From the IMG/VR virus record IMGVR_UViG_3300029786_000322: a DNA stretch of 64,000 nucleotides; one strand, given 5' to 3'. Under the pieces are notes generated by a model. The model was not told where the DNA came from, searched no databases, and saw only the letters and a list, made by a program, of their open reading frames with translations. The DNA comes from a virus. Positions 3,703 through 62,872 of this stretch are shown piece by piece (within the stretch, counting starts at the first letter, position 1; the number at the start of each line of letters is the position of its first letter). A program made the position numbers and the translations under genes.

Positions 3703-3757
3703 TTAAAAATAATCCCACGGGGATAGAGGTTAGTGAATAGCTTTAAGCCACTGTTAT
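3703..3757 (+). ncRNA. conserved 55-nt structured element (leader of mini-array A). A near-identical copy follows the tnpB stop codon at 59021-59073
   Basis: TTAAAAATAATCCCACGGGGATAGAGGTTAGTGAATAGCTTTAAGCCACT versus TTAAAAGTAATCCCACTGGGATAGGGCTTTGTGAATAGCCTTAAGCCACT. Two hairpins, the second with compensatory changes (GGTT/AGCT versus GGCT/AGCC). Confidence 0.5.
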
Positions 3758-3758
3758 A

Positions 3759-3992
3759 GTTGCACCACGCAAGGGTGCAGGGGTGAAATATTATACTGAA
3801 TCGTCGCTGCCTGCATAGATATAGTTGCATCCCTTATGGGATGTATGGGTTGAAATTCAATAGAAACAGATGCATTCGGAGGTGTTACAAGTTGCACCCC
3901 CGCAAGGGGTGCATGGGTTGAAAATAAGAAATGGTAGGAAGGAATTCAGATATGAACATTAGTTGCATCCCGCAAGGGTGCAGGGGTGAAGT
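3759..3992 (+). CRISPR. mini CRISPR array A: 4 type I-C-like repeats, 3 spacers of 33-35 nt
   Basis: Repeats at 3759-3789, 3824-3856, 3891-3925 and 3962-3992. They keep GTTGC...(G/T)GGTTGAAAT ends, but each has a different palindromic stem. Spacer 2 recurs in array D. Confidence 0.7.
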
Positions 3993-4151
3993 AAAAGGAT
4001 GTTGCCAGATATGTCAACCAAACTCGACTATTGAATAAATAACCGAGCATGATTCCTTCGGAACTGCTGAATCATGTAGTCTGACTGGTGAAGCGATGGT
4101 ATACATATTTGAACAAATTAAACAAAAATACAGAATCAGAGGGAAAATAAT

Positions 4152-4799
4152 ATGTCAAAAACAAAAGGACTATCAAAGAAGAAAAAATTACTAAAAACGC
4201 TCATACATAAATACCTTCCATTGCAGGTACTACTTACTGTCTTTTTGTATGCAGTAATTGTATTTATTAACATTCCAATTAATAAATGGCTTACTCTCAA
4301 CTGTCAGAAATGGTCAAGTGGGGAATATCATTTTTATGATGCATTTTTTATTCTTCCATTTGCTGAACTGTTAATTTTTGCCATTATGTCTGCCGTTATT
4401 TGCGCTGTTTATTATTTTGTCAGTGGAATAATCGCATATAGGAATTACTGTTACATTCCACTTACAGAAGATGAAATCAAGAAAAAAGGATTTAAAAATG
4501 CAGATGAGTATTTTGCTTATGTGTGCAACATGTGTTCTTATGGTTTTAAAAATAATAAAGACTACATTCTTGTTGGTGATGAAGACCTCCAAAAAATGTT
4601 AACTACCTGTCTGCAGGTATTTCCTGATAATGGGACAATTTTTGGAATAAACCGCCATATGGTACGAAATATCATATGGGATCCTGATTTTCTTTCCGCA
4701 CTTGCACTAGCCAGTGACCAAAGGGCGGAAATCATCAATGGACGTGTTGTATTGTCTGGCACCACAAAAGATGGTGACAGAAAAGAATATAAGATATAA
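4152..4799 (+). CDS. membrane protein with two N-terminal TM helices, array-linked paralog family (copy 1)
   Basis: RBS GAGGGAAAATAATATG. Paralog of 25498-26145 with shared blocks INIPINKWLT and AYRNYCYIPLTEDEIK. Sits directly downstream of array A. Confidence 0.7.
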   Translation: MSKTKGLSKKKKLLKTLIHKYLPLQVLLTVFLYAVIVFINIPINKWLTLNCQKWSSGEYHFYDAFFILPFAELLIFAIMSAVICAVYYFVSGIIAYRNYCYIPLTEDEIKKKGFKNADEYFAYVCNMCSYGFKNNKDYILVGDEDLQKMLTTCLQVFPDNGTIFGINRHMVRNIIWDPDFLSALALASDQRAEIINGRVVLSGTTKDGDRKEYKI

Positions 4800-5901: not shown

Positions 5902-7725
5902 ATGATCAACGGAGAATTAGTTGTAGATAATTTTGCGGGCGGAGGAGGAGCTTCCACAGGAATTGAACTTGCTACCGGATACAGCGTAGACATAGCTATT
6001 AACCATGATCCGGAGGCCATTAAGATGCATAAAGTAAATCATCCCAATACAAAACACTATTGTGAAAACGTATGGGAGGTTGATCCAGTAAAAGCCTGCA
6101 AGGGGCACCCTGTCGGTCTTGCATGGTTTTCTCCGGACTGTAAGCATTTTTCCAAGGCCAAGGGGGGAAAACCGGTAGAAAAGAATATTCGCGGTCTTGC
6201 GTGGGTTGTGCTTAAATGGGCGGCACTTGTCAGACCAAGAGTTATCATGCTTGAAAATGTGGAAGAATTTCAGACATGGGGACCATGTATTCCTATCAGG
6301 GATAAAGATACAGGACGCGTTATTGTCAGCATGGTAGGAAGGCATGACAGAGAGAAGAACGAGCCGCGTACGAGGGTTGCAGATCCAGGAGAAGTTGTTC
6401 CTGTGGATCGCCAGATATTCCAACCAGATCCTAAAAGGAGCGGCCAGACATACAAAAAATGGAGAAAGCAGCTAGAAGCACTTGGATATGAGATAGATAC
6501 AAAGGAACTTGTAGCAGCTGATTATGGCGCACCTACTATGAGAAAGAGATTCTTTATGATTGCACGGTGTGATGGCAAGCCGATTGTCTGGCCGGAACCA
6601 ACACATGGACCGGCAGATAGTGAAGAGGTAAAGGCAGGACTGTTAAAACCATACGTTGGAGCGTATACGCAATTGGATTTTTCTCTTCCTTGCCCGAGCA
6701 TATTTGATACGGCAGAGGAAATCAAAAGGAAATATGGAATACGCGCTGTACGTCCATTGGCGCAGAAAACAATGGATCGAATCGCAAGAGGATTGAAAAA
6801 GTTCGTATTAGACAATCCGGAGCCGTTTATTATCCAATGCAATCATGGTGGAGAGCGTAGACAAAACGACATCAAAGAGCCTTTACCTACTATTACTGGA
6901 AAACACGGATATGGAATTGTGGAACCTAAGATTGTTCCATATATGGGAACCAATACAACAAATCATCCAGGTGGAAATTGTAAAAATCCTATACATACAA
7001 TTACAACAGGAAATCAACAGTGCCTTATCAGCCCAACGCTGATTCAGTATCATTCCGAAACATCGAAGGATGAAGTCAGAGGCCAATCGATTGAAGATCC
7101 GATAATGACCGTGGATGGTTCGAACCGATACGGATTGGTCACGTCGTTTCTACATAAATATTATGACGGAGGATACACTGGAGCTGGTGATACTGTCGAA
7201 AATCCGTTACCGACAGTAACATCCTGGGATCATAACAGTCTGTGTGCAGTTAATCTGATCCAAATGAATAATCATTGCGATGGAAGGGACGTGAAGGAGC
7301 CAATTCCAACAATCACAGCAGGCGATGGTCATTTCGGAGAGGTTAGAGCATTTCTGATCAAGTATTATGGTCAGGGAACTGGACAGGATGTTAAGGAACC
7401 TTTGGATACGGTTACATCAAGAGATCGATTTGGTTTAGTTACAATTAATGGTACCGACTATAAGATCGTGGATATCGGATTGAGGATGCTTGAACCGAAA
7501 GAACTGTATGGATGCCAGGGATTTCCAGATGATTACATCATAGACCGCGATTACACAGGGAAAAAATACCCAAGAAGCGAGCAGGTACGCAGGTGTGGAA
7601 ATGCTGTATGTCCTCCGATTCCGGCTGCTCTTGTAAAAGCAAATCTTCCGGAATTATGCGTAGCGAAACGCACTGGGAATATGAAAATTCGTGAGGAACA
7701 GACCGGGCAGCTTAGATTTGCATAA
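5902..7725 (+). CDS. DNA (cytosine-5)-methyltransferase, probably multispecific (five tandem target-recognition-like repeats)
   Basis: Motif I FAGGGGAS, PC motif SPDCKHFS, ENV motif MLENVEEF, motif VIII-like QTW. Five repeated blocks KEPLPTITG / EDPIMTVDG / ENPLPTVTS / KEPIPTITAG / KEPLDTVTS. The start is placed at MINGEL, which has an AAGGGG RBS. The track ORF extends to 5671, but the N-terminal extension looks non-coding. Confidence 0.8.
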   Translation: MINGELVVDNFAGGGGASTGIELATGYSVDIAINHDPEAIKMHKVNHPNTKHYCENVWEVDPVKACKGHPVGLAWFSPDCKHFSKAKGGKPVEKNIRGLAWVVLKWAALVRPRVIMLENVEEFQTWGPCIPIRDKDTGRVIVSMVGRHDREKNEPRTRVADPGEVVPVDRQIFQPDPKRSGQTYKKWRKQLEALGYEIDTKELVAADYGAPTMRKRFFMIARCDGKPIVWPEPTHGPADSEEVKAGLLKPYVGAYTQLDFSLPCPSIFDTAEEIKRKYGIRAVRPLAQKTMDRIARGLKKFVLDNPEPFIIQCNHGGERRQNDIKEPLPTITGKHGYGIVEPKIVPYMGTNTTNHPGGNCKNPIHTITTGNQQCLISPTLIQYHSETSKDEVRGQSIEDPIMTVDGSNRYGLVTSFLHKYYDGGYTGAGDTVENPLPTVTSWDHNSLCAVNLIQMNNHCDGRDVKEPIPTITAGDGHFGEVRAFLIKYYGQGTGQDVKEPLDTVTSRDRFGLVTINGTDYKIVDIGLRMLEPKELYGCQGFPDDYIIDRDYTGKKYPRSEQVRRCGNAVCPPIPAALVKANLPELCVAKRTGNMKIREEQTGQLRFA

Positions 7726-7865
7726 ATTGCATAAATTGCTATACTGTAAAAAGAAAATGTAAATATTGCTATCATTTGTATTTTTATAGACGTTCATATG
7801 CGCAATACATAATTCTTTTTGAAAAAGTAATGAGATGGTAACAAAGAAAAAAGGAGAGTGAAAGA

Positions 7866-13950: not shown

Positions 13951-14002
13951 GAAAGAAGCCGTGGAATCCCGACTTTTCTGCTGCATTGTGTGTATATTTT
14001 AA

Positions 14003-14075
14003 CGCCGCCTGCGGGATTCGAACCCGCGGATAAAGAGTTCAAAGCTCCCTGCGTTAACCTTTTCGCCAAGGCGGA
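14003..14075 (-). tRNA. tRNA-Gln(TTG), provisional
   Basis: T-arm GCGGG-TTCGAAT-CCCGC, anticodon loop CTTTGAA, U1 as in Gln tRNAs. Acceptor pair 1-72 is mismatched. Confidence 0.5.
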
Positions 14076-14076
14076 G

Positions 14077-14144
14077 CACACCCGGAAGGACTCGAACCCT
14101 CGTTACCGGTTTTGGAGACCAGTTTCTGTCCATCAGACAGGTGC
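14077..14144 (-). tRNA. tRNA-Trp(CCA), provisional (short D-arm)
   Basis: Anticodon arm CTGGT-CTCCAAA-ACCGG identical to the canonical Trp arm. T-loop TTCGAGT. Acceptor GCACCTG/CGGGTGT has two G-U pairs. Confidence 0.5.
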
Positions 14145-14148
14145 ATAA

Positions 14149-14219
14149 CAGGCGATAATGGAATCGAACCATTGTTTTCTGAGTCAGAATCAGATGTCTT
14201 ACCATTGAACGAATCGCCC
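14149..14219 (-). tRNA. tRNA-Gln(CTG), provisional
   Basis: Anticodon arm TCTGA-TTCTGAC-TCAGA, T-arm AATGG-TTCGATT-CCATT. Confidence 0.55.
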
Positions 14220-14221
14220 AG

Positions 14222-14295
14222 TATCCCCAAAGGGACTCGAACCCTTAACCGACAGATTAGAAATCTGTTGCTCTTTCCAATTGAGCTATGGGGAT
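14222..14295 (-). tRNA. tRNA-Arg(TCT)
   Basis: Acceptor ATCCCCA/TGGGGAT, D-stem GCTC/GAGC, anticodon arm ACAGA-TTTCTAA-TCTGT, T-arm AAGGG-TTCGAGT-CCCTT. Confidence 0.7.
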
Positions 14296-14301
14296 ATATA
14301 G

Positions 14302-14391
14302 CGCAGACACCGGGGATCGAACCCGGACAGCGGGTGTGCCGCATGCCACATTAGCAGTGTGGAGGGGTACCATTTACCTTTATATGTCTGC
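14302..14391 (-). tRNA. class II tRNA-Ser(GCT), provisional
   Basis: 90 nt. Anticodon arm CCACA-CTGCTAA-TGTGG, long variable arm GCGG..CCGC, T-arm CCGGG-TTCGATC-CCCGG, acceptor GCAGACA/TGTCTGC. Confidence 0.55.
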
Positions 14392-14396
14392 ATAAG

Positions 14397-14468
14397 AGGC
14401 ATCGGAGGGGATCGAACCCTCGCCTTCCGGGTTGCAGCCGGACGCCTTCGCCGTTTGGCTACGATGCC
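14397..14468 (-). tRNA. tRNA-Cys(GCA)
   Basis: Acceptor GGCATCG/CGATGCC, anticodon arm TCCGG-CTGCAAC-CCGGA, T-arm GAGGG-TTCGATC-CCCTC. Confidence 0.7.
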
Positions 14469-14498
14469 ATATAATTCTTCCCGATAAGAGAAGATGAG

Positions 14499-14582
14499 CG
14501 CTGGGGCAGGGAGTCGAACCCTGATATCCTTTCGGAATGACGGTTTTCAGGACCGTTGCTTTACCAGTTGAGCCACCACAGC
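14499..14582 (-). tRNA. class II tRNA-Ser(TGA), provisional (C33, one acceptor mismatch)
   Basis: 84 nt. Anticodon arm ACGGT-CCTGAAA-ACCGT, variable arm TCC-GAAA-GGA, T-arm CAGGG-TTCGACT-CCCTG. Confidence 0.5.
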
Positions 14583-14827
14583 AAAAATAAAAGCATACAC
14601 CTCTCAATCGAAAGATGTATGCTTTGCAATTCCAGGTATTTCCAATATTCTCCCGGAAATTTCCCTACAATGACCACATTTCTTTCAATTTGAGACAATA
14701 TTTATTTGCACGACAACTACGCCAGATACATGACTGCGACTGACTCATACTTGCCTGTGAATATTGTCTCATTACTGCTGTAATCATTGATTTTCCCTTC
14801 CTTTCCTTGGTTTTCTTGAATATTTAG

Positions 14828-14901
14828 TGTGTCTGGTGGGACTTGAACCCGACGACCCCACGATTAAAAGTCGCGTGCTCTGCCAACTGAGCTACAGACA
14901 C
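14828..14901 (-). tRNA. tRNA-Lys(TTT)
   Basis: Acceptor GTGTCTG/CAGACAC, D-arm GCTC-AGTTGGCA-GAGC, anticodon arm CGCGA-CTTTTAA-TCGTG. The T-stem has a 1-nt bulge. Confidence 0.65.
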
Positions 14902-14906
14902 ATAAG

Positions 14907-14978
14907 CGGATCAGGAGGGAATCGAACCCTCATCTTCCGGTAGACAGCCGGATGTACTAGCCGCTATACTACAGATCC
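14907..14978 (-). tRNA. tRNA-Asp(GTC), provisional (U37, one acceptor U-U)
   Basis: Anticodon arm TCCGG-CTGTCTA-CCGGA, T-arm GAGGG-TTCGATT-CCCTC. Confidence 0.55.
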
Positions 14979-14982
14979 ATAA

Positions 14983-15055
14983 AGCTCCCGTCCGGCTTCG
15001 AACCGGAAACCTTCTGATTACAAGTCAGATGCACTACCAGTTGTGCTACAGGAGC
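14983..15055 (-). tRNA. tRNA-Thr(TGT)
   Basis: Acceptor GCTCCTG/CGGGAGC, D-stem GCAC/GTGC, anticodon arm TCTGA-CTTGTAA-TCAGA, T-arm TCCGG-TTCGAAG-CCGGA. Confidence 0.7.
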
Positions 15056-15139
15056 AGGAACACTTCCGACGGGTGCTGCCCCGCTATCTCCGCCGTGACA
15101 GGGCGGTGACTCTGTTGTTTGTCCTCGGAAGTAAATAAG

Positions 15140-15221
15140 TGCGCCGGGGAGGACTCGAACCTCCGGTGTTTCTTTGTGGCTGATTTACAGTCAGCTGCTG
15201 TCGCCTCTGAGCCACCGACGC
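15140..15221 (-). tRNA. class II tRNA-Tyr(GTA)
   Basis: Anticodon arm GCTGA-CTGTAAA-TCAGC, long variable arm, T-arm GGAGG-TTCGAGT-CCTCC, acceptor GCGTCGG/CCGGCGC. Confidence 0.7.
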
Positions 15222-15226
15222 ATAAG

Positions 15227-15298
15227 CTGGTCCGGAGGGTCTCGAACCCTCAACGCCCCGGTTAACAGCCGGGTGCTCTACCATTGAGCTACGGATCA
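15227..15298 (-). tRNA. tRNA-Asn(GTT)
   Basis: D-arm GCTC-AATGGTA-GAGC, anticodon arm CCCGG-CTGTTAA-CCGGG, T-arm GAGGG-TTCGAGA-CCCTC. One A-C acceptor mismatch. Confidence 0.65.
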
Positions 15299-15299
15299 G

Positions 15300-15371
15300 A
15301 GCATGTGACGGGTCTCGAACCCGCCCGTCCTGCTTGGAAGGCAGGTGTGCCGCCAACAACACTTCACATGC
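15300..15371 (-). tRNA. tRNA-Gly(TCC)
   Basis: Acceptor GCATGTG/CACATGC, anticodon arm CCTGC-CTTCCAA-GCAGG, T-arm GCGGG-TTCGAGA-CCCGT. Confidence 0.7.
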
Positions 15372-15436
15372 ATGCGGATAAAAGAAGTGCCTGTTTTCTC
15401 TTATCCATTCAGTTTTTTTACCGCATCGCTGCGGAG

Positions 15437-15508
15437 TGGACAGGAGTGGTAACGATCCACCCTGTAAGGATTTTCAGTCCTTCGCTAATCCATCTCAGCT
15501 ACCTGTCC
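15437..15508 (-). tRNA. tRNA-Phe(GAA) with an atypical T-loop (A54/U58 swapped)
   Basis: Perfect acceptor GGACAGG/CCTGTCC, D-arm GCTG-AGATGGAT-TAGC, anticodon arm AAGGA-CTGAAAA-TCCTT, T-arm GGTGG-ATCGTTA-CCACT. Confidence 0.55.
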
Positions 15509-16783: not shown

Positions 16784-17116
16784 TTGAAATGTTTGACATG
16801 CAAGAAACACTGGTCGCAGGGAGGCCGCTGTTCAGAGAACGTGAGAAACTGCCTGCATTATGAGGAAGAACCAAGAGGAAAAATGGTCCGCACAGAACTG
16901 TCTTTTCGTATGGATGCAGAGGCGGAAACTCCGGTGGTCAGATTTGGAGAGAAAATACTGGTTTCCGATGGTTCAAAAGCGGTCGAGATGACTGTGGTCA
17001 AGATCAACTGGGTTAATCTTCGGGATATGCTCTGCAATGTATCCGCGGATTATCATGAGAATGAGATGCCGCGATTTGAGAAAGAAAAGAAGTTCAAAGC
17101 ATTACATGGAAAATAG
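16784..17116 (+). CDS. hypothetical protein, 110 aa (TTG start)
   Basis: AAAGGAGGAGG RBS 9 nt upstream of the TTG. The stop codon abuts the first repeat of mini-array B. Confidence 0.5.
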   Translation: MKCLTCKKHWSQGGRCSENVRNCLHYEEEPRGKMVRTELSFRMDAEAETPVVRFGEKILVSDGSKAVEMTVVKINWVNLRDMLCNVSADYHENEMPRFEKEKKFKALHGK

Positions 17117-17222
17117 TTGCATTCCAGTGGAATGCATGGGGTGAAAGAAATAGGCAAATCGCATGACAATTTCTGAAATTAAATTGTTGCGCTCCCGTGG
17201 AGGGGGGCGTATGGATTGAAAT
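17116..17222 (+). CRISPR. mini CRISPR array B: 2 repeats, 1 spacer
   Basis: Repeats GTTGCATTCCAGTGGAATGCATGGGGTGAAA and GTTGCGCTCCCGTGGAGGGGGGCGTATGGATTGAAAT. Begins at the last base of the upstream stop codon. Confidence 0.55.
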
Positions 17223-18810: not shown

Positions 18811-18915
18811 GCTGCATCATGTGCGGGGGTGTATGGATTGAAATGTCGGAGTATGGTGTAAGAATCATATATATTCCTACGTTGTGCTCCTCCCGGTTGG
18901 TGCACGGGTTGAAAT
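18811..18915 (+). CRISPR. mini CRISPR array C: 2 repeats, 1 spacer
   Basis: GCTGCATCATGTGCGGGGGTGTATGGATTGAAAT, a 35-nt spacer, then GTTGTGCTCCTCCCGGTTGGTGCACGGGTTGAAAT. Starts 2 nt after the upstream stop codon. Confidence 0.55.
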
Positions 18916-20506: not shown

Positions 20507-20724
20507 GTTGCGCCCCATTGGGTGCATGGGTTGAAATCTTTATGACCTTCTGAAAAGTGAGGGCATCTTAGTTGCACCCCCGCAAGGGATGTATGGGTTG
20601 AAATTCAATAGAAACAGATGCATTCGAAGGCGTTACAAGTTGCACCCCGCGAGGGGTGTATGGGTTGAAATTGCAGAAAGCTCAGGATTGGAAGGTTGCA
20701 TCCTATGGGATGCATGGATTGAAA
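20507..20724 (+). CRISPR. mini CRISPR array D: 4 repeats, 3 spacers
   Basis: Repeats at 20507-20537, 20571-20604, 20639-20671 and 20695-20724 with divergent stems. Spacer 2 (20605-20637) is near-identical to spacer 2 of array A. Starts 20 nt after the upstream stop. Confidence 0.7.
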
Positions 20725-24784: not shown

Positions 24785-25482
24785 GCTACGCCCCATGGAG
24801 GGGCGTATGGATTGAAAATGATTGTTATTGTTTTTTATTCATGGAGAGGAAAGCTACGCCCCATGGAGGGGCGTATGGATTGAAAAGTAAGGTTTCGTCT
24901 CGAAGCCTTTATTCTGTTTTGCTACGCCCCATGGAGGGGCGTATGGATTGAAATACCAAAATCTTTTGACATTCTTATAAATGGTAACAGCTACGTCTTA
25001 TGGGGTACGTATGGATTGAAATCATAATAATTGTAGAGATCTCAATACAAAATAAAGCTGCGTCTCATGGAATACGTATGGATTGAAATGAAAAGGCGAG
25101 TTTGCGAAAGCAGATATTGGAATGTTGCGTCTCGTGGAGTACGTATGGATTGAAATTCCAACTTTAACTACATAACTATCCTGATAAACTTGCTGCACCC
25201 CATGGAGAGTGTATGGATTGAAATTTAAAAAATCATGGATAACATCTGCGATAAGACGTTGCACCTCGCTAGGGGTGTATGGGTTGAAATTTCCATAATC
25301 GGTAGCCAATTATTATCATTAGGTGTTGCACCCCATAGAGGGTGTATGGATTGAAATTATATAAAAATGATGAATATGTAAAAAAAATAAAAGAGTTACG
25401 CTCCATGGAGTGCGTATGGCTTGAAACCTCTTATTTTTTTAAAGATATCACAATTACGCCCAAAGTGGGCTTACGTAAATTT
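24785..25482 (+). CRISPR. main CRISPR array: 10 repeats of 33 nt plus a degenerate terminal repeat, spacers of 33-37 nt
   Basis: Repeats at 24785, 24853, 24921, 24990, 25057, 25124, 25192, 25258, 25325 and 25395. A degenerate eleventh sits at 25454-25482. The first three are identical (GCTACGCCCCATGGAGGGGCGTATGGATTGAAA). Later ones keep the GYTRC 5' end and TATGGATTGAAAT 3' handle but have different, internally complementary stems. Confidence 0.85.
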
Positions 25483-32332: not shown

Positions 32333-32524
32333 TTTCTTGCGGAGCAGAGCAGAGGAAGGCTCACCGGGCTCATGACCTGGGTGTCGGATGTTCGATTCCT
32401 TTCTCCGCAATTAATTTTAAAAAAGGGAGGTTATAACATGTTCTAACTGATTAGAAAACATAAACAAGCATTCGTTCAAAAGAAAGATTCGTATGTGAAA
32501 AAAGGATGGGAGGAAAAGAAAATC

Positions 32525-41402: not shown

Positions 41403-42791
41403 ATGGATGCTGACGAGTACAAAAAACTTCTGAAAAAATTTCATAAACTTTCTGACAGGCATATCCTGGTCGCTGAGACGGATATGTCTTATCCTGATGT
41501 GCAGAAGGTCGTAAATTTCTCCGGCAGGATCCGGAAAGCTGGCAATGAGCTTGTTGGTGTCATGAAAAAGAATTATGAACAGCTCATGCGTACCAAAAAG
41601 TACCGCAAGATGCTCCAGCTGTATGGCTCCACTGAGGACAAAAACAAACGCAAAACATATGCCGGACAGCTCAACGAAATGCAGGAACAGTATAATCTCA
41701 CAAAGGAGTCCTGCCGGACGTTGATGATACCCATTGGCAAGAAGTACGGCATTGATGCCATATTTGCCCTCGCGAAAGCCGAGGACGTGTGGCGAGGTGT
41801 TGAAAAATGCCTTTACGGGAATGGAAGGATGCTTCATTTCTCCAGATATGGAGACTTTCCATGCATCAGGGCAAAGCAGATCAACCGCGGCGTCCCGATG
41901 CCCGTAAAAAACGATGAACTGAAGTTTAAGCTGGGAAAATTAGTTTTCGGGATACAGGTCAAAGACCGGTTCCAGACAGACGAAGTCAATGCCGTCCTGG
42001 ATTATCTGGCACAGCCGGAAGTCATAGACAACAAGGCAGTAAAGACTCTTCAGGATGAAGCGTGCTGTATCAGCACGTACCGGCCTTGCTACGCAACGCT
42101 CGTACCGAAATTCATCCGTGGGAAATACAGGGTGTACCTGCATCTCGTCATCGAAGGAAAGGCAAAACCGAAGTACGACAGTTCCGGCAATCCGCGGCAT
42201 AAATACGGCAGGGGCGTCGTTGGTGCGGACATTGGCACACAGACGATAGCCTATACTTCCGATACAGAGACAGGACTTAAAAACTTATCGGAAAGAGGCA
42301 ACAGCATACAGAAATCCGAACGTCTGGAAAGACTGTATTACCGCGCCATGGACCGAAGCAGACGTGCCACGAATCCGGAGAATTACAACGCCGATGGCAC
42401 CATTAAGAAAGGGAAGAAGAAGTGGACTTACTCCAGGCATTACAAAAAGCTGAAGGCAAAACATGCGGAACTCTGCCGCATAAATGCCACAAACAGGCAG
42501 CTTGCCATAAATGAGGATGTAAACCACCTGCGTTGTCTCGGAGATACATTTGTCACGGAACCTAAAAATGCAGCCAGGCTCATGAAACGGGCGAAAGAGA
42601 CAACTGTTAATAACAAAGGCAAGATCAACAGGAAGAAACGTTTTGGAAAGTCGGTAAAGAACCGGTGCCCGGGCGGTTTCCAGGCTGCCGTGGAAAATAA
42701 GTTCAAAACATCCGGCGGTACATATATAGAAGTACCCAATAATTACAGGGCAAGCCAGTATGACCACACGGCAGATGATTACATAAATTAG
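41403..42791 (+). CDS. tnpB: TnpB-like RuvC-fold protein, truncated by an insertion (lacks RuvC-III and the C-terminus)
   Basis: RuvC-I VVGADIGTQTIAYTSD and the central region FQAAVENKFKTSGGTYIEVPNNYRASQYDH. The frame stops right after a 217-bp segment that is repeated at 43153-43370. Confidence 0.6.
   Translation: MDADEYKKLLKKFHKLSDRHILVAETDMSYPDVQKVVNFSGRIRKAGNELVGVMKKNYEQLMRTKKYRKMLQLYGSTEDKNKRKTYAGQLNEMQEQYNLTKESCRTLMIPIGKKYGIDAIFALAKAEDVWRGVEKCLYGNGRMLHFSRYGDFPCIRAKQINRGVPMPVKNDELKFKLGKLVFGIQVKDRFQTDEVNAVLDYLAQPEVIDNKAVKTLQDEACCISTYRPCYATLVPKFIRGKYRVYLHLVIEGKAKPKYDSSGNPRHKYGRGVVGADIGTQTIAYTSDTETGLKNLSERGNSIQKSERLERLYYRAMDRSRRATNPENYNADGTIKKGKKKWTYSRHYKKLKAKHAELCRINATNRQLAINEDVNHLRCLGDTFVTEPKNAARLMKRAKETTVNNKGKINRKKRFGKSVKNRCPGGFQAAVENKFKTSGGTYIEVPNNYRASQYDHTADDYIN
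42570..42788 (+). repeat. direct repeat copy 1 (about 217 bp, tnpB internal segment)
   Basis: Near-identical to 43153-43370. The two copies flank a roughly 365-bp insert. Confidence 0.7.
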
Positions 42792-42812
42792 AGTTGTAGA
42801 AAGGATATATGA

Positions 42813-43193
42813 ATGATTCTAACAGAACATGAACAGGTAATTATTAACAATATGAGACACCCATCAATTCGTACAGTAACGGCGAGCAAATCGTATAAAG
42901 ATTTATCCGATGAAGAGCTTACTTCACTAATTGGCAAAATAGATGACTATGTGAATGAAATTGGTGAAACACAGAGAGCTTTCGGTAATTATGATGAATT
43001 TTACGTATTAGAATTTGATTCGATTAAGGCTCATCTAGTAGATGAATGTCAACGCAGAAAAATTATGCTTAGAATGCAAGGCGATAAATTTGACGTTTAT
43101 CGAAAAGAATATAATGAAATAGTAAATAGCGCAATGAATCATCCTGTTGGATGCAGCCAGACTCATGAAACGGGCGAAAGAGACAACTGTTAA
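42813..43193 (+). CDS. hypothetical ORF inside the insert that splits tnpB
   Basis: 126 aa, RBS AAAGGATATATGAATG. Its end runs into repeat copy 2. Confidence 0.35.
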   Translation: MILTEHEQVIINNMRHPSIRTVTASKSYKDLSDEELTSLIGKIDDYVNEIGETQRAFGNYDEFYVLEFDSIKAHLVDECQRRKIMLRMQGDKFDVYRKEYNEIVNSAMNHPVGCSQTHETGERDNC

Positions 43194-43596
43194 TAACAAA
43201 GGCAAGATCAACAGGAAGAAACGTTTTGGAAAGTCGGTAAAGAACCGGTGCCCGGGCGGTTTCCAGGCTGCCGTGGAAAATAAGTTCAAAACATCCGGCG
43301 GTACATATATAGAAGTACCCAATAATTACAGGGCAAGCCAGTATGACCACACGGCAGATGATTACATAAAAAAGAAGCTGTCCGACAGGATGTATAAACT
43401 TACAGACGGGACACTGGTACAAAGGGACTGGTACTCATCATTCCTGTTGTACTGCTACAATTACAGAACCAATGATATAGATAAAAAGAAATGTGCTGCA
43501 GAATTTAAAAAATGCTACAGCATGGAAAAGGAATTAATTGAATGGATCAAAAAACATAAGATCAAAGTGCTGAACAGCGGAATTAAAACCGCTTGA
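43147..43596 (+). pseudogene. tnpB: displaced C-terminal fragment of tnpB, including the RuvC-III-like QRDWYSSF region
   Basis: In frame with the repeat. Continues ...HTADDYIKKKLSDRMYKLTDGTLVQRDWYSSF, which aligns to the TnpB C-terminus. Confidence 0.5.
43153..43370 (+). repeat. direct repeat copy 2
   Basis: See copy 1. Confidence 0.7.
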
Positions 43597-44023
43597 CTAT
43601 ATGTTCGTAGGGAGACTGACTATGCTTCCTTGTCGCCAGACAGAAATTTACTGAAAAACAACTAGCTTTCTTTACATAATAATGTGGCCGTAGGGCTGCA
43701 TGGTAATAAAGTCCTTGCTTGAAATAGACTTATACCTGTATTCCAAAGCCTGCAAATGGTGTACGATTACAGGCAAAACTTGAGAGCAAGAACCCCACAG
43801 GCTTGCCTGTGGAAGTAGTCAGTTATGCCGTATTAAACGATTGTCCTCCTGGAACAACGACATATTTTTTTGTTGAAAAAATGTTCAGAAGAAAAATCAA
43901 ATGAGAATATTAGAGATAACATTCTTAAATCAAGTAACACTTATAGTTTCATGGAGAGATAGGTTAACTACTCCTGACAATGCAGGAGACTTTTTCTTAG
44001 ATATTTTATTAAATAAATGACCG

Positions 44024-45941: not shown

Positions 45942-46040
45942 GTTGCACTCCCGCGGAGGGGGTGCATGGATTGAAATCGACTTTCGAAACGGTAATTGGA
46001 TTTTACTACGCTGCGTCCCCGCGAGGGGCGCATGGATAAA
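45942..46040 (+). CRISPR. mini CRISPR array G: 2 repeats, 1 spacer
   Basis: GTTGCACTCCCGCGGAGGGGGTGCATGGATTGAAAT, a 32-nt spacer, then GCTGCGTCCCCGCGAGGGGCGCATGGATAAA. Confidence 0.5.
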
Positions 46041-46064
46041 GAAACAGGGAAAGGGAGGGAACGT

Positions 46065-56976: not shown

Positions 56977-57285
56977 ATGGGATTACAAATGAGAAAAATA
57001 CCATATGGCTACACATTTTACCCGGTGTTGTGGAAAGGAGAAGCGTATGCTGTTGATCTTCTTTGGAGTAGAGATGGAATCGTGTCCGGGTACGTTATGG
57101 TGCACATATGCCAGTACATAGAGAAAAAAATATTTTTGTACGGATATTCTGGTAAACGGCTGTTCAATGCAGGGAAAATCTACAATGAGCACAGAGTGCC
57201 CCTTCTGACCTACTGGATCAGGAGGTTACCAGTGATACTTCTTCGAAGTACCACAACGGGTGAAAGCACAGAGGATCAAAGATAA
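56977..57285 (+). CDS. hypothetical protein, 102 aa
   Basis: RBS AAAGGATCAGAGAAAATG. Confidence 0.45.
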   Translation: MGLQMRKIPYGYTFYPVLWKGEAYAVDLLWSRDGIVSGYVMVHICQYIEKKIFLYGYSGKRLFNAGKIYNEHRVPLLTYWIRRLPVILLRSTTTGESTEDQR

Positions 57286-57411
57286 TCAATGGCATTATCA
57301 GAGATTATTTATTTTTCTGATTATTGATATACTTCTCAACTGCATCTGCTGTACGGTCACTTACAGTTTTATTCTCTGTAAAAATAAAATTTAAAAAGTT
57401 TCCAAAATCCT

Positions 57412-57438
57412 TTGACAAAATCACAAAAGGCGCAATAT
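57412..57438 (+). promoter_or_regulatory. conserved promoter-like element copy 12 (drives tnpB)
   Basis: TTGACA-N11-GGCGCAATATGTATACCG. Confidence 0.65.
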
Positions 57439-57485
57439 GTATACCGTAAAGGTAAAAATACCACAATGGAAAGGAGACAACTGAT

Positions 57486-59015
57486 ATGGGTTACATGCGT
57501 ACTGCAACTGTATATATCAATGAGGGACACCCTCTGTTCAAATATGCAGACAACTTAACAGCACTGACCAACAACCTCAGTAACGCGGCACGTTTCCGTC
57601 AGCGGCAGGTGCTCTCAGCTGTCTCCAAAGAGGAAGCTGACTGGACAGCCAACGAGCGCGAGGTTATGGAGGAAATCCGTAAAACAGTCCCTCTGAGGGA
57701 AAAGGCATCCATGCCGACCAAAGGAAAACATTTCCTCGGATATATGTTTCTTGAGGGGATCTTGCGGGTGAACCATAACCCGGATTTTTACGCTGAAGGA
57801 CTGCCTCGCCAGACAGCACAGCATGTCTTAAAGACTGCAGTGAAAGACATGAAGAGTTTTTATAAAGCCATTAAGGAATACAATAAAAACCCTGACCGTT
57901 TCACCGGACAGCCAGAACTTCCAGGCTACAAACGCAAGGGAGGCCATTCCACTGCGCTGATCACCAACCAGGACTGCACAATCAAAACCTGTGACGGCAA
58001 GTGGTATGCGTACTTTCCTCACGCAAAGGATAAACCCGTGTGCCTTGGATATCCGATACCGAATGCAAGACTTAAACAGGCATGCATCACTCCGAACAAC
58101 GGACGGTATAAGTTGTCCTTTCAGTTTGAAGTAGATGCAGATATCCCGGAAATCCCAGAGGATATCCGTCCAGAGCGTATCTGTGCCATTGACTTTGGTG
58201 TGGACAACCTTATGTCGGTCACAAACAACTGCGGTCTGCCATCCCTGATTTATAAAGGCGGTGTGGCAAAGTCCGTCAACCAGAAATACAACAAAACGAT
58301 AGCTGCACTCGTGAGCGAGCAGACCCTCCGTACCGGGGAAAAGTTTGTCCCAGATGCAGCGTATCACGCTGCAACAAACAGAAGAAACGACCAGATCTCT
58401 GATTTCATGCGAAAGTGCGCAAAACACTTCGTGGCATGGTGCATAGAAAACCGTATCGACACCGTTGTCATGGGTATAAACAAGTACTGGAAGCAGGAAG
58501 CAGGCCTCGGCAAAAGAAACAACCAGAACTTTGTGCAGCTCCCGTTTGACAGGCTGCGTAACATCATCCGCTATCTCTGCGTATGGGAAGGCATCTTCTG
58601 TCTGGATCAGGAGGAAAGCTATACTTCAAAAGCAAGCTTTCCGGACAGGGACTTTATCCCTGTATACGGTAATGAGAAAGGAAAACCCTCCTTCTCCAGA
58701 CAGCGGAGACCTGTACATTACAAGGGAATGTACAAAAAGGATGGCTTCCGCGGGCTTTATACAACAAAATCCGGCGATATCATCAACTCCGACCTGAATG
58801 GATCTGCAAATATCCTGCGGAAAGCATTCCCAAACGCTTTCACAGAAAAACCTGCGCCTGATTTTAACAGTGTGGTAATTATCCGCCATCCGGATGAAGA
58901 AAAAGTCAAAAATAACCGGAAGAAACAGACGGCAGTGCAAAAACAGGACAGCCATGCAAAAATCAAACGGCAGCGCAAAAAGGATGCAAAGCGTAAAAAA
59001 CATCCGGCTGCGTAA
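57486..59015 (+). CDS. tnpB: TnpB-like RNA-guided-nuclease-family protein (RuvC-I/II/III present, zinc finger degenerate). No tnpA present
   Basis: RuvC-I ICAIDFGVDNLMSVT, RuvC-II region VAWCIENRIDTVVMGINKYWKQ, EESYTSK, RuvC-III INSDLNGSANILRK. AAAGGAGACAACTGATATG RBS. Confidence 0.85.
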   Translation: MGYMRTATVYINEGHPLFKYADNLTALTNNLSNAARFRQRQVLSAVSKEEADWTANEREVMEEIRKTVPLREKASMPTKGKHFLGYMFLEGILRVNHNPDFYAEGLPRQTAQHVLKTAVKDMKSFYKAIKEYNKNPDRFTGQPELPGYKRKGGHSTALITNQDCTIKTCDGKWYAYFPHAKDKPVCLGYPIPNARLKQACITPNNGRYKLSFQFEVDADIPEIPEDIRPERICAIDFGVDNLMSVTNNCGLPSLIYKGGVAKSVNQKYNKTIAALVSEQTLRTGEKFVPDAAYHAATNRRNDQISDFMRKCAKHFVAWCIENRIDTVVMGINKYWKQEAGLGKRNNQNFVQLPFDRLRNIIRYLCVWEGIFCLDQEESYTSKASFPDRDFIPVYGNEKGKPSFSRQRRPVHYKGMYKKDGFRGLYTTKSGDIINSDLNGSANILRKAFPNAFTEKPAPDFNSVVIIRHPDEEKVKNNRKKQTAVQKQDSHAKIKRQRKKDAKRKKHPAA

Positions 59016-59020
59016 ATACA

Positions 59021-59073
59021 TTAAAAGTAATCCCACTGGGATAGGGCTTTGTGAATAGCCTTAAGCCACTTAT
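59021..59073 (+). ncRNA. conserved 55-nt structured element immediately 3' of tnpB (candidate omega-RNA terminal scaffold). Near-identical copy at 3703-3757
   Basis: See 3703-3757. Confidence 0.5.
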
Positions 59074-59092
59074 GTTACTCTAACTCCCGAAA

Positions 59093-59133
59093 CCACGCCT
59101 GATGGCGGAGCGGAGCGAAGGTTTCAGGCGTGG
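59093..59133 (+). terminator. long hairpin 3' of the tnpB locus (terminator-like, weak U-tract)
   Basis: CCACGCCTGA, a 20-nt loop, then TCAGGCGTGG, followed by TAATTCATTTT. Confidence 0.4.
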
Positions 59134-59581
59134 TAATTCATTTTAAATCTGTAATGGATCCATCCGTTTCATTCCATAATATCAGTTACAATCAGATGTT
59201 ATTAGCTCTTTATCCGGATATTATAAAGAAGGCATTCGCTGAATATGAGAAGAGATTGTTTGAACAGACTTTGCAGAATGAAATGGAAAAGAAAGCTGCT
59301 GAATGGGATGGGGTTATAGATGCCGTTCAAGATTCTTCCAGCAGACGAGAAAGGTTAGAAAAACGACTCATATATTTAAAGGATTATTTACAAAAGTACG
59401 ATGGTGTGAGTGAACAGATTTATAATAGTTTTAGCAAAGAAATTACAGAAATAGAAGAAGAACTGGGGAAGCTTGGAGGTTGATACATATCCGCAACTTT
59501 TTAGGGTGTTTCGTTATTTCTTAGCTGATAAGATATTTTGGAGACATAAGATTTACGTTTGATAAAAAGGAGAGAAGTGAT

Positions 59582-61186: not shown

Positions 61187-61762
61187 TTGGAATATATCTG
61201 CCGTTGGGCGGGGCTTGTGAAACCGAGAGTGATCATGTTGGAAAACGTAGAAGAATTTAAAACATGGGGACCATTGAACCGGCGGCATCATCCAATTAAG
61301 GCAAAACAGGATAAGACATTTGAGCGGTTTGTGCAACAACTTCGGGAGCTTGGCTATGAAGTGGAGCTCCGTGAGCTGATTGCTGCCGATTATGGTGCGC
61401 CGACTATGCGCAAACGATTCTTTATGATCGCGCGGTGTGACGGCAAGCCGATTGTATGACCAGAGCCAACACACGGACCGGCAGACAAGTGAATAGGTAA
61501 AAGCCGGACTGTTAAAACCATACGTTGGAACATACACACAGATTGATTTCAGCCGGCCGTGTCCTTCGATTTTTGATACATCAGAGGAGATCAAAGAAAA
61601 GTACGGCATCCGGGCAGTACGTCCGTTGGCTCCGAAAACAATGGATCGGATCGCAAGAGGTTTGAAAAAGTTTGTACTCGACAATCCGGAACCATTTATC
61701 ATTCGGTGTAACCACGGCGGCGAGCGCAGACCGAACGATATCCGGGAACCAATACAACAAAT
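61187..61762 (+). pseudogene. decayed second copy of the C5 methyltransferase (frameshifts and stops), 5' and middle part
   Basis: RVIMLENVEEFKTWGP...ADYGAPTMRKRFFMIARCDGKPIV parallels 6240-6600. Downstream, homology continues in other frames (KAGLLKPYVG, IRCNHGGER). Confidence 0.6.
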
Positions 61763-62469: not shown

Positions 62470-62669
62470 CCAGATGATTACATCATAGACCACGATTACA
62501 CAGGAAAAAATACCCAAGAAGCGAGCAGGTACGCAGGTGTGGAAATGCTGTATGTCCTCCGATTCCGGCTGCTCTTGTAAAAGCAAATCTTCCGGAATTA
62601 TGCGTAGCGAAACGCACTGGGAATATGAAAATTCGTGAGGAACAGACCGGGCAGCTTAGGTTTGCTTAA
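62470..62669 (+). pseudogene. 3' terminal fragment of the decayed methyltransferase copy
   Basis: About 95% identical to 7515-7725, including the stop codon. Confidence 0.6.
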
Positions 62670-62780
62670 ATTTTGGAAAATGATGGTAGGAAATTTAAAG
62701 AGCATGATTAAAAATGAATAGAAGAAAAGCCAAAAAGTGAAAGAATAACACCTATCTTTTATGTAGTAAGTATATTTACA

Positions 62781-62872
62781 GTTGCATCCCTTATGGGATG
62801 TATGGGTTGAAATGCAATCAGGCTGCGGATGCTACCGGCTTGTTGCGCTTTATGAGGCGCATGGATGGAAAT
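62781..62872 (+). CRISPR. mini CRISPR array H: 2 repeats, 1 spacer
   Basis: The first repeat, GTTGCATCCCTTATGGGATGTATGGGTTGAAAT, is identical to repeat 2 of array A. The second is GTTGCGCTTTATGAGGCGCATGGATGGAAAT. Confidence 0.55.

What the first reader, a model, noticed from the sequence alone, without database searches (positions are those of the whole stretch)
57412..59133. Solitary tnpB expressed from a phage-type promoter, with degenerate zinc finger and a conserved 3' RNA element
The gene keeps all three RuvC motifs, but the CxxC zinc-finger cysteines are replaced. It lacks tnpA and recognisable IS ends. It sits behind conserved promoter copy 12 and is followed by the 55-nt element shared with array A and then a 10-bp-stem hairpin. 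It looks domesticated: an RNA-guided nuclease kept by the phage, possibly with its guide at 59074-59092.
Basis: partly seen in the sequence, partly recalled or inferred. Interest (0 to 1): 0.5.

Follow-up and report, generated by a model that had tools for sequence, protein, structure and literature searches.

The report
Mobile TnpB transposon in huge phage
This is a transposase-less IS605-type insertion sequence, not a domesticated gene: its RNA-guided nuclease gene (tnpB) sits behind a copy of the phage's own promoter-like module, it splits a phage gene, and related phages that lack it are mutated exactly at the nuclease's recognition motif, as expected if it spreads like a natural gene drive.

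Summary
The interpretation does not. Both IS ends are present, so the element is 57184-59141. It contains, in order:
- a left-end hairpin;
- a 20-codon tnpA stump;
- a 99-nt copy of the phage's promoter-like module, replacing tnpA and the native promoter;
- tnpB;
- the omega-RNA scaffold;
- the right-end hairpin, ending TAATTCAT.

The 90%-identical autonomous IS, with Y1 tnpA, occurs elsewhere. The same promoter-bearing, tnpA-less element sits at two other sites in related phages, always 3' of TCTAC or TCGAC and always inside an ORF.

The proposed guide (59074-59092) is internal and identical in copies at different sites. The canonical guide starts at 59142.

Related phages carry the uninterrupted 182-codon gene with the exact empty site, TCTAC|TTTAAATCTGTAAT.

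Among IS-less alleles the recognition-motif (TAM) codon is the most variable of 180 columns. Other alleles delete the TAM plus target in frame. A second insertion site shows the same TAM-codon polymorphism.

Absence of the zinc finger is clade-wide. The RuvC-II glutamate appears relocated.

Best reading: a phage-adapted selfish IS acting as an RNA-guided homing element. Nuclease activity and the omega-RNA remain untested.

The parts
56977..57183 (+). N-terminal 69 codons of the phage gene that the element splits
   Evidence: Joining 56977-57183 to 59142-59483 gives a 182-aa ORF. Uninterrupted orthologs of exactly 182 aa exist at 85-95% identity. A paralog in L165 aligns continuously across the junction.
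57179..57183 (+). TCTAC: the TnpA target motif and presumed TnpB TAM, immediately 5' of the left end
   Evidence: The empty site in L173-L175 reads ...GAAATCTAC|TTTAAATCTG. Nineteen distinct insertion sites of the family give TCTAT x13, TCTAC x3, and TCGAC, CCTAT and ACTAT once each.
57184..57304 (+). IS left end (LE). It comprises a 15-nt leader, the hairpin 57199-57225 (CCCCTTCTGA cctactgga TCAGGAGG), a 32-nt palindromic insertion at 57226-57257 found only in copies at this site, and the LE tail.
   Evidence: blastn against the autonomous IS L015 gives 100% over the hairpin and 93% over 57258-57368. Copies at other sites (L111, L142) lack the 32 nt. The DNA fold keeps the hairpin.
57305..57367 (-). 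tnpA stump: the last 20 codons plus the stop codon of the Y1 transposase
   Evidence: tblastn of L015 TnpA matches residues 119-138 to 57367-57308 at 100% identity. No other TnpA match is found in the window.
57369..57467 (+). Phage promoter-like module inside the IS (core TTGACA-N11-GGCGCAATAT at 57412-57438). It replaces 446 nt of L015, namely most of tnpA plus the native TGgTATAAT promoter.
   Evidence: Promoter function is inferred from position and conservation. The module is not a canonical sigma-70 match in the scan.
57486..59015 (+). tnpB, 509 aa, preceded by the IS-derived RBS at 57468-57485. Key residues: RuvC-I D236; canonical RuvC-II position probably G330, with invariant E376/E377 as the alternative; RuvC-III D436 (NSDLN); no zinc finger.
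   Evidence: dN/dS is 0.12-0.18 among copies.
59016..59141 (+). 3' omega-RNA scaffold region and IS right end (RE).
   Evidence: The region is conserved in relatives. Hairpin 2 covaries across the family. Identical IS copies diverge right after TTCAT.
59142..59161 (+). Predicted guide-encoding flank, TTTAAATCTGTAATGGATCC, which is also the target sequence in IS-less alleles
   Evidence: Inferred from the canonical TnpB mechanism. The empty-site alleles carry TCTAC followed by TTTAAATCTGTAATAGATCC.
59142..59483 (+). C-terminal 113 codons of the split phage gene
3703..3767 (+). Relic copy of the omega-RNA core (hairpins 1 and 2 and the start of the linker), lying between a promoter module and CRISPR-like array A
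   Evidence: 88% identity over 50 nt; nhmmer E = 5e-12. It is closest to the L159 lineage and has a stem-breaking C-to-G change. A variant phage keeps only its 3' half.

Best explanation
The region 57184-59141 is a non-autonomous IS200/IS605-family insertion sequence. It descends from an autonomous tnpA+tnpB element. In it, most of tnpA and the native promoter were replaced by a copy of the phage's own promoter-like module.

It inserted 3' of a TCTAC motif inside a 182-codon phage gene.

Inferred mechanism:
1. The module drives a tnpB transcript that reads through the right end.
2. TnpB binds the 3' scaffold (hairpins 1 and 2 and the RE hairpin) as its omega-RNA.
3. The guide is the first 16-20 nt of the right flank (59142 onward).
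4. That guide plus the TCTAY TAM matches only genomes that lack the insertion.
5. In a cell co-infected with a related IS-less phage, TnpB would cut the empty allele, and recombination would copy the element in. This is homing, or a gene drive. Transposition to new sites needs TnpA supplied in trans.

Shown here: the element's anatomy, its IS ends, its mobility to three sites, the empty site, purifying selection, and TAM-focused polymorphism in IS-less alleles.

Inferred: promoter activity, omega-RNA production, nuclease activity and the homing itself.
For: Family and ends
- The protein is a TnpB by family and fold.
- The nearest relatives, at 89-90% identity (L014, L015), and one at 68% (L009, in phage context) carry a divergent Y1 tnpA.
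- The window aligns to L015 over the LE hairpin, the tnpA tail, the RBS, tnpB and the RE. The 446-nt tnpA/promoter segment is swapped for the phage module.
- Copies at different sites are identical up to TAATTCAT and diverge after it.

Mobility and selection
- The same promoter-bearing element lies at two further sites in related phages: L111, and L135/L142/L147/L154/L163. Those contigs also carry the phage's promoter modules; the L142-group contigs L142 and L163 also carry CRISPR-like repeats, and L163 shares a 93%-identical flank with the window. Each insertion is inside an ORF.
- tnpB is intact in all copies, with dN/dS 0.12-0.18.

Empty site and TAM polymorphism
- The empty site is found in L173-L175 as TCTAC|TTTAAATCTGTAATAGATCC, within a 182-aa gene.
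- The TAM consensus from 19 sites is TCTAY.
- IS-less alleles read TCAAC, TCCAC and TCTTC at the DNA level, and TGY is inferred for the Cys allele.
- The TAM codon is the most variable of 180 columns and needs at least 7 changes on the tree, against at most 4 for any other column.
- Nine protein clusters carry an in-frame 31-codon deletion that removes the TAM and the target.
- Replicate at the L142 site: the TAM codons read ST, FM or SA. Both are among 9 variable columns of 117, and one is the only three-state column.

Literature
- The homing concept and a TnpB drive in plasmids are described in PMC10055086, 10.1101/2025.02.20.638934 and PMC13565253.
Against: - There are no expression or activity data.
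- The canonical RuvC-II glutamate appears to be replaced by Gly330. [quoted passage not shown] - The window copy has a 32-nt insertion next to the LE hairpin, so it may no longer transpose.
- The window's guide differs at position 15 (G versus A) from the IS-less alleles found. Same-site copies such as L013 and L110 match fully.
- No synonymous seed mutations are seen among the four IS-less alleles sequenced across the target; escape might be expected to produce some.
- The TAM-codon variation was noticed after the fact. The protein clusters are not independent samples, and recombination could inflate the parsimony count.
- Metagenomic contigs can be chimeric.
Confidence: 0.75

Rival explanations
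1. A domesticated, immobile TnpB is kept by the phage as its own RNA-guided nuclease, with a fixed internal guide at 59074-59092.
For: There is no intact tnpA in the window. A phage promoter module lies upstream. The gene is under purifying selection. The window copy's LE carries a 32-nt insertion.
Against: - Both IS ends are present.
- The identical promoter-bearing element is at three precise TAM-adjacent sites.
- The proposed guide is the same, or differs by 1 nt, in L014, L015, L111, L142 and the window despite different flanks.
- The proposed guide varies by IS lineage, not by location.
Confidence: 0.03
2. The element is a passive passenger. It is an ordinary non-autonomous IS whose TnpB serves only transposon retention after TnpA-mediated excision, or does nothing in phage. 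On this view, the polymorphism at the TAM codons of IS-less alleles is unrelated protein-level variation or an artefact of recombination.
For: - tnpB-only IS605 elements are the commonest form of the family (PMC10691335, Discussion).
- The TAM signal was found post hoc from 12 and 6 protein clusters.
- There are no seed mutations.
Against: - With tnpA lost there is no excision in cis for retention to act on, yet tnpB stays intact under purifying selection at three sites.
- Two independent sites both have their most polymorphic column in the TAM codons.
- The substitutions hit TAM positions 2-4, which are near-invariant over 19 insertion sites.
- In-frame deletions remove exactly the TAM plus target.
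Confidence: 0.2
3. The nuclease works as a proto-type-V system. TnpB would use transcripts of the phage's CRISPR-like mini-arrays as guides, with the omega-RNA core copy in the array A leader (3703-3767) acting as scaffold.
For: The order promoter, omega-RNA core, hairpin-containing repeat, spacer in array A formally mimics the order scaffold, RE hairpin, guide. TnpB-to-CRISPR associations have evolved many times (PMC10691335).
Against: - The array A copy derives from a different IS lineage (L159-like) and has a stem-breaking change in the covarying hairpin 2.
- A related phage keeps the array but only the 3' half of the element.
- The repeats end in ATGGRTTGAAAT and, from my own knowledge, look like type I-C repeats, which would be processed by host Cas proteins.
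- Array A is 53 kb from tnpB.
- The other six arrays lack the element.
Confidence: 0.02

Closest known systems
IS200/IS605-family insertion sequences of the IS605 group (ISDra2, IS608) and their TnpB/omega-RNA (OMEGA) systems
   Same: - Relatives carry a Y1 tnpA divergent from tnpB.
- The subterminal hairpins are asymmetric at LE and RE.
- Insertion is 3' of a pentanucleotide (TCTAY) without target duplication.
- A structured RNA region spans the tnpB 3' end to the RE.
- The guide is the right flank.
- The fold is that of TnpB and Cas12f.
   Different: - tnpA and the native promoter are replaced by a promoter-like module of the carrier phage.
- The protein is about 100 aa longer than ISDra2 TnpB.
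- It has no C4 zinc finger.
- The canonical RuvC-II Glu position is probably Gly.
- The omega-RNA is not in Rfam.
TnpB clades with a RuvC-II rearrangement (RIIr-5 in Altae-Tran et al. 2023, PMC10691335)
   Same: An invariant Gly lies at the end of the strand where the canonical Glu sits. An invariant alternative Glu (E376/E377) lies on the next strand. These clades are reported to be as mobile as canonical ones.
   Different: Placement in that clade was not tested by phylogeny. The paper names RIIIr-4 as the one major clade that lacks the ZF and says the ZF is lost in some large branches, whereas this clade has none.
TnpB-driven homing, or gene drive, of IS elements (Meers et al., PMC10055086; plasmid drive, bioRxiv 10.1101/2025.02.20.638934; 'transposon non-restorative homing' in PMC13565253)
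   Same: The guide plus TAM match only the IS-less allele. The carrier replicon is multi-copy or co-infecting. Over-transmission is the predicted outcome.
   Different: Here the carrier is a huge phage and tnpA is absent. The evidence is population-genomic (empty sites, TAM-variant alleles and target-deleted alleles), not experimental.
Free-standing homing endonuclease genes of phages (T4 Seg and Mob)
   Same: A selfish nuclease gene in a phage genome is expected to cut related co-infecting genomes and be copied in.
   Different: Recognition is by RNA guide rather than by protein. The element also keeps transposon ends and has moved to new sites.
Domesticated TnpB derivatives (TldR and similar; PMC10705468)
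   Same: tnpB without tnpA, kept under selection.
   Different: TldRs are nuclease-dead and immobile and lack IS ends. This element keeps its candidate catalytic residues and both ends, and it is found at several sites.

Membership tests
IS200/IS605-family element with TnpB (OMEGA system) | TnpB protein: RuvC-fold RNA-guided nuclease family | tested here: met
   NCBIfam NF040570 at 3e-32, above its cutoff; Pfam PF01385 above its cutoff. AF2 model with pLDDT 93; Foldseek probability 1.0 to Cas12f, ISFba1 TnpB and ISDra2 TnpB.
IS200/IS605-family element with TnpB (OMEGA system) | Association with a Y1 (HUH) TnpA transposase | tested here: met
   The window keeps only a 20-codon stump. The 89-90% and 68% relatives L014, L015 and L009 have a divergent PF01797 Y1_Tnp gene.
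IS200/IS605-family element with TnpB (OMEGA system) | Asymmetric ends with subterminal hairpins (LE and RE) | tested here: met
   LE hairpin at 57199-57225 and RE hairpin at 59093-59133, both conserved in relatives.
IS200/IS605-family element with TnpB (OMEGA system) | Insertion 3' of a short conserved motif, with no target-site duplication and a seamless empty site | tested here: met
   TCTAY at 16 of 19 sites (TCTAT x13, TCTAC x3; one-base variants TCGAC, CCTAT, ACTAT at the other three). The empty site TCTAC|TTTAAATC in L173-L175 equals the left flank joined to the right flank.
IS200/IS605-family element with TnpB (OMEGA system) | Conserved structured RNA (omega-RNA scaffold) from the tnpB 3' end to the RE | tested here: met
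   The region is conserved in sequence across relatives whose proteins are 45-90% identical. Hairpin 2 shows many compensatory stem variants around a conserved YGTGRAY loop. Transcription was not tested.
IS200/IS605-family element with TnpB (OMEGA system) | TAM-dependent, RNA-guided DNA cleavage | not testable with these tools
   A biochemical or interference assay is needed. The only indirect evidence is the TAM-focused polymorphism.
Domesticated, immobilised TnpB (TldR-like or other exapted TnpB) | Loss of transposon ends and a fixed genomic position | tested here: not met
   Both ends are present. The same element is at three sites.
Domesticated, immobilised TnpB (TldR-like or other exapted TnpB) | Inactivated RuvC site | tested here: not met
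   D236, E376/E377 and D436 are invariant in 103 sequences. G330 at the canonical Glu position fits the rearranged class, presumed active, described in PMC10691335.
Type V CRISPR-Cas (Cas12) | Effector encoded next to a CRISPR array whose repeat or tracr matches its scaffold RNA | tested here: not met
   The nearest array is at 62781-62872 and has unrelated repeats. Only array A, 53 kb away, has a decayed scaffold fragment. No spacer matches the element.
RIIr-5 clade of TnpB (PMC10691335) | Canonical RuvC-II Glu replaced by Gly, with an alternative Glu | tested here: inconclusive
   G330 is invariant at the end of the predicted strand 326-331, and E376/E377 are invariant. The register against ISDra2 rests on a sequence recalled from memory, and hhalign stopped at residue 317. 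No phylogenetic placement was done.

The most novel reading that the evidence does not exclude
A TnpB insertion sequence that has swapped its transposase for a phage promoter module is acting as a natural RNA-guided gene drive among related huge gut phages. The phage population carries drive-resistance alleles: recurrent substitutions at the conserved TAM positions, and in-frame deletions of the TAM plus target. These are seen at two independent insertion sites.
Probability: 0.45. Interest if true: 0.75.

Novelty: new variant of a known kind. Interest (0 to 1): 0.55.

Why it matters
TnpB homing has been shown in the laboratory for chromosomes and plasmids. In the papers I searched, homing between co-infecting phages appears only as a category in a review table.

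This locus offers a concrete natural case with all the pieces needed for a test:
- the element itself;
- its exact empty site in relatives;
- a TAM consensus;
- a set of candidate resistance alleles that can be assayed directly.

It also shows an IS adapting to a viral carrier by taking over the virus's own promoter module. And it gives a compact, zinc-finger-free TnpB with a rearranged RuvC site, a defined scaffold and a defined TAM, for biochemical study.

Tried and rejected
- blastn of the locus against GenBank phages found no match.
- phmmer against PDB sequences gave nothing useful. A profile search gave only a RuvC-I-region match to an ISDra2-like designed nuclease.
- Rfam, at gathering and at E-value thresholds, has no omega-RNA family match.
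- A regex for an LE hairpin with the RE stem sequence found only the RE itself, because this IS has different LE and RE stems. The LE was found only by aligning to L015.
- A viral-contig scan with the right flank returned 0 hits.
- A look-up of the 109-aa downstream product was first mis-framed and then found nothing on record.
- My first placement of the RE end at 59130 was a counting error. I corrected it to 59141.
- A first promoter pattern used the wrong spacing and gave 0 hits. It was corrected.
- I looked by eye for pairing between the variable linker and the RE hairpin loop, as a possible pseudoknot. Short complementarities exist in several lineages but are inconsistent, so I dropped the idea.
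- I tested whether the phage's CRISPR-like spacers target the element or its target site. They do not.
Full report
**1. What is at the coordinates**

The ORF 57486-59015 (+, 509 aa) scores above the curated cut-offs of the NCBIfam 'RNA-guided endonuclease TnpB' model (3e-32) and of Pfam OrfB_IS605. It has a weak match to the Cas12f1-like TNB domain. More than 6,500 homologs exist, mostly about 500 aa and from gut metagenomes.

An AlphaFold2 model built on 103 relatives is confident (pLDDT 93, pTM 0.85). Its best PDB matches are Cas12f, ISFba1 TnpB and ISDra2 TnpB, all at probability 1.0.

The window belongs to a huge phage. The same locus lies on a 327,480-bp ENA contig. The window also carries a 13-tRNA cluster and many CRISPR-like mini-arrays.

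**2.

*Promoter.* TTGACR-N11-GGCGCAATAT occurs 11 times, always on the + strand, against 0.09 expected. The copy at 57412-57438 lies 48 nt before the tnpB start. It is not a canonical sigma-70 match, so 'promoter' is an inference from conservation and position.

*Zinc finger.* Between E376 and D436 there is no Cys and only one His. Where canonical TnpBs read YTSQxCxxC, this protein reads YTSKASFPD. The same holds for all 103 aligned relatives. The absence is therefore a clade trait, not decay in this copy. Altae-Tran et al. note that the C4 finger is lost in some large TnpB branches (PMC10691335).

*RuvC.* D236, E376/E377 and D436 (NSDLN, the 'derived' NADxN-type motif) are invariant. However, the strand where the canonical RuvC-II Glu sits (326-331, DTVVMGIN) ends in the invariant G330. 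This resembles the RuvC-II rearrangement described for large TnpB clades, in which Glu becomes Gly and an alternative Glu takes over. My register against ISDra2 uses a sequence recalled from memory, and hhalign stopped at residue 317. This point is therefore an inference.

*3' element.* 59021-59070 matches 3703-3752 at 88%, and the 10-bp hairpin is real.

**3. The IS ends are there**

The closest distinct relatives are P0002 and P0003 (90% and 89% identity; loci L014, L015) and P0004 (68%; L009, in a phage context). Each has a divergent 137-138-aa Y1 transposase gene.

L014 and L015 are the same IS at two different sites. Their sequences are identical through ...GGCGTGGTAATTCAT and then diverge. 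So do two copies in one Faecalibacterium MAG and dozens of metagenomic copies. The right end in the window is therefore at 59141.

Aligning the window to L015 gives these segments:

| Window | Match in L015 | Identity |
|---|---|---|
| 57199-57225 | LE hairpin | 100% |
| 57226-57257 | none (32-nt insertion) | - |
| 57258-57368 | LE tail plus the last 20 codons of tnpA, minus strand | 93% |
| 57369-57467 | replaces L015 452-897 (most of tnpA plus the native TGgTATAAT promoter) with the phage promoter module | - |
| 57468-59141 | RBS, tnpB and RE | 90% |

The element is thus 57184-59141.

**4. The element is mobile, not domesticated**

The same tnpA-less, promoter-bearing element lies at two other places. 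One is L111 (97% identity; flanks GGATCGAC| and |AAATACAGC). The other is the group L135/L142/L147/L154/L163 (94%; flanks AAAATCTAC| and |GAAATATGTTC).

These contigs also carry further copies of the phage promoter module. L142 and L163 also carry CRISPR-like repeats, and L163 has a flank 93% identical to window 42095-43822. They are therefore related phages.

In both cases the reconstructed empty site is an open reading frame. These copies lack the 32-nt LE insertion.

tnpB is intact in all copies, with dN/dS of 0.12-0.18.

PATE-like mini-elements also occur at several sites. They consist of the LE fused to the 115-nt post-stop region, without tnpB (L096/L097/L138, L101, L136).

**5. The proposed guide is not the guide**

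The segment 59071-59092 is identical, or differs by 1 nt, in L014, L015, L111, the L142 group and the window, even though their flanks all differ. Across lineages it varies with the IS, not with the location. It is a lineage-variable linker between hairpin 2 and the RE hairpin.

By the established TnpB mechanism the guide is the flank beginning at 59142, TTTAAATCTGTAATGGATCC.

**6. The 3' RNA**

The post-stop region folds into three parts:
- hairpin 1, ATCCC/GGGAT;
- hairpin 2, GGCT-TTGTGAAT-AGCC;
- the RE hairpin.

Over more distant relatives, hairpin 2 keeps a YGTGRAY loop while its stem changes in a compensatory way: AGGGAG/CTCCCT, AGTAC/GTACT, GGCCG/CGGCC, GTGCT/AGCAC, GGACT/AGTCC, GGCAT/ATGCC. 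This is good evidence for a functional RNA. No Rfam family matches it.

**7. The copy in front of array A**

The segment 3703-3767 covers hairpins 1 and 2 and the start of the linker. Four observations argue against a function there:
- It is closest to another IS lineage (L159).
- It carries a C-to-G change that breaks the covarying stem.
- In a related phage (L108/L141/L169/L170) only its 3' half remains, while the array is unchanged.
- The other arrays lack it.

I read it as a relic of an older IS insertion. A hybrid TnpB-CRISPR reading is not excluded, but I give it about 2%.

**8. Empty site and target gene**

Joining 56977-57183 to 59142-59483 gives a 182-aa ORF. A database search returns uninterrupted orthologs of exactly 182 aa at 85-95% identity. 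Their DNA reads ...GGGGAAATCTAC|TTTAAATCTGTAATAGATCC... (L173-L175). This fixes the boundaries to the base and shows that the insertion is seamless and creates no target duplication.

Nineteen distinct insertion sites of the family give a TCTAY consensus. C at position 2 occurs in 19 of 19 sites, T at position 3 in 18 of 19, and A at position 4 in 19 of 19.

**9. An unexpected population signal**

Among 12 close full-length alleles, the codon that carries TAM positions 3-5 (Y69, TAC) reads Y, H, N, C or F. It is the most variable of 180 columns, with five residues where no other column has more than three. On a tree built without that column it needs at least 7 changes, against at most 4 for any other column.

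At the DNA level the variants are TCAAC, TCCAC and TCTTC. The 14 TAM-proximal target bases are unchanged. Nine further clusters carry an in-frame 93-nt deletion that removes the TAM and the target.

As a replicate, I examined the gene interrupted at the L142 site. Its IS-less alleles read ST, FM or SA at the two TAM codons. Both codons are among only 9 variable columns of 117, and one is the only three-state column. The implied base changes hit TAM positions 2 and 4.

This is what resistance to TAM-dependent cutting by a co-infecting IS-bearing phage would look like. Caveats:
- The pattern was noticed post hoc.
- The clusters are not independent.
- Recombination may inflate the counts.
- No seed mutations are seen.
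- Cutting has not been shown.

**10. Comparison with what is known**

The anatomy meets the defining features of an IS200/IS605 element with a TnpB/omega-RNA system. It fails those of a domesticated TnpB, because it keeps its ends, its candidate catalytic residues and its mobility. It also fails those of a type V CRISPR effector.

tnpB-only IS605 elements are common (PMC10691335). TnpB homing and plasmid drive are established experimentally (PMC10055086; 10.1101/2025.02.20.638934). Homing between co-infecting phages is listed as a category in a recent review (PMC13565253). TnpB genes in huge phages have been reported (PMC11160803).

Within the reach of my searches, three things appear to be new:
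- the replacement of tnpA and its promoter by the carrier phage's own promoter module, in an element that still moved;
- a fully documented empty site;
- TAM-focused polymorphism in nature.

**11. Verdict**

The 'domesticated nuclease with an internal guide' reading is wrong. The best explanation is a phage-adapted, non-autonomous IS605-family element acting as an RNA-guided homing element. I am about 95% confident of its identity and about 60% confident of the homing function. Novelty: a new variant of a known kind. Interest: 0.55, driven by the testable gene-drive and resistance signal.

Noticed in passing
window 3759-3992, 17116-17222, 18811-18915, 20507-20724, 24785-25426, 45943-46042, 62781-62872 (all + strand): There are seven CRISPR-like mini-arrays with 2-10 repeats of about 33 nt at a period of about 67 nt, ending in ATGGRTTGAAAT. 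From memory this looks like a type I-C repeat. Within a single array, repeat stems differ by compensatory changes, which is unusual for a CRISPR array. I did not search the window for cas genes. They could be phage-borne arrays that use host Cas proteins, or RNA anti-CRISPR-like decoys.
   Followed up: partly
window 24955-24989: One 'spacer' in the largest array (ACCAAAATCTTTTGACATTCTTATAAATGG...) resembles the phage's own promoter-like module, including TTGACA. It could be an internal promoter within the array, or a spacer against the promoters of related phages.
   Followed up: no
window 3857-3890 and 20605-20638: The same spacer, at 94% identity, is present in two different mini-arrays.
   Followed up: no
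window 1040, 3654, 9816, 12603, 16729, 17629, 20829, 21091, 44099, 48510, 57412: The promoter-like module TTGACR-N11-GGCGCAATAT occurs in 11 copies, all on the + strand and upstream of + strand ORFs or arrays. The spacing and the GGCGCAATAT box are not canonical sigma-70, which could point to a phage-specific sigma factor or regulator.
   Followed up: partly
window 57226-57257: A 32-nt palindromic insertion (TTACCAGTGATACTTCTTCGAAGTACCACAAC) lies just after the LE hairpin. It is unique in the window and present only in copies at this site. It may have immobilised this copy.
   Followed up: partly
L096/L097/L138 (about 700-870 in L096), L101, L136: PATE-like miniature derivatives of the same IS family consist of the LE hairpin fused directly to the 115-nt post-stop omega-RNA/RE region, with no tnpB. 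They sit at three different sites, one in IMG/VR viral contigs. They could supply omega-RNAs in trans.
   Followed up: partly
L177 1501-1953 and protein clusters P0133-P0142: These alleles of the split phage gene carry an in-frame 93-nt deletion covering the TAM and the TnpB target. There is no obvious microhomology at the junction.
   Followed up: partly
L165 about 545-2780 and 4134-4508: This variant contig is 99.96% identical to the window through 59136, but the last 5 nt of the RE and the right flank are replaced (GGCGTGGTAAAAGCCGG...). It also holds an uninterrupted 50%-identical paralog of the split gene, which is absent from the corresponding place in the window. It could be a rearrangement or an assembly chimera.
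   Followed up: no
window 14002-15508 (- strand) and 32337-32411: A cluster of 13 tRNA genes plus a separate tRNA-Met, which fits a huge phage genome.
   Followed up: no
window 6505-6886 vs 61373-61755, and 7559-7728 vs 62503-62672: These are long-range direct repeats, at 76-81% and 99% identity, about 55 kb apart. The downstream copy overlaps a DNA-methylase-like ORF that was called in L098.
   Followed up: no
window tnpB vs L111 vs L013: The window's tnpB differs from the L111 copy, at another site, by only 3 nonsynonymous changes. It differs from the same-site L013 copy by dS 0.05. The LE tails group the other way round. This suggests gene conversion or recombination among the IS copies.
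   Followed up: no
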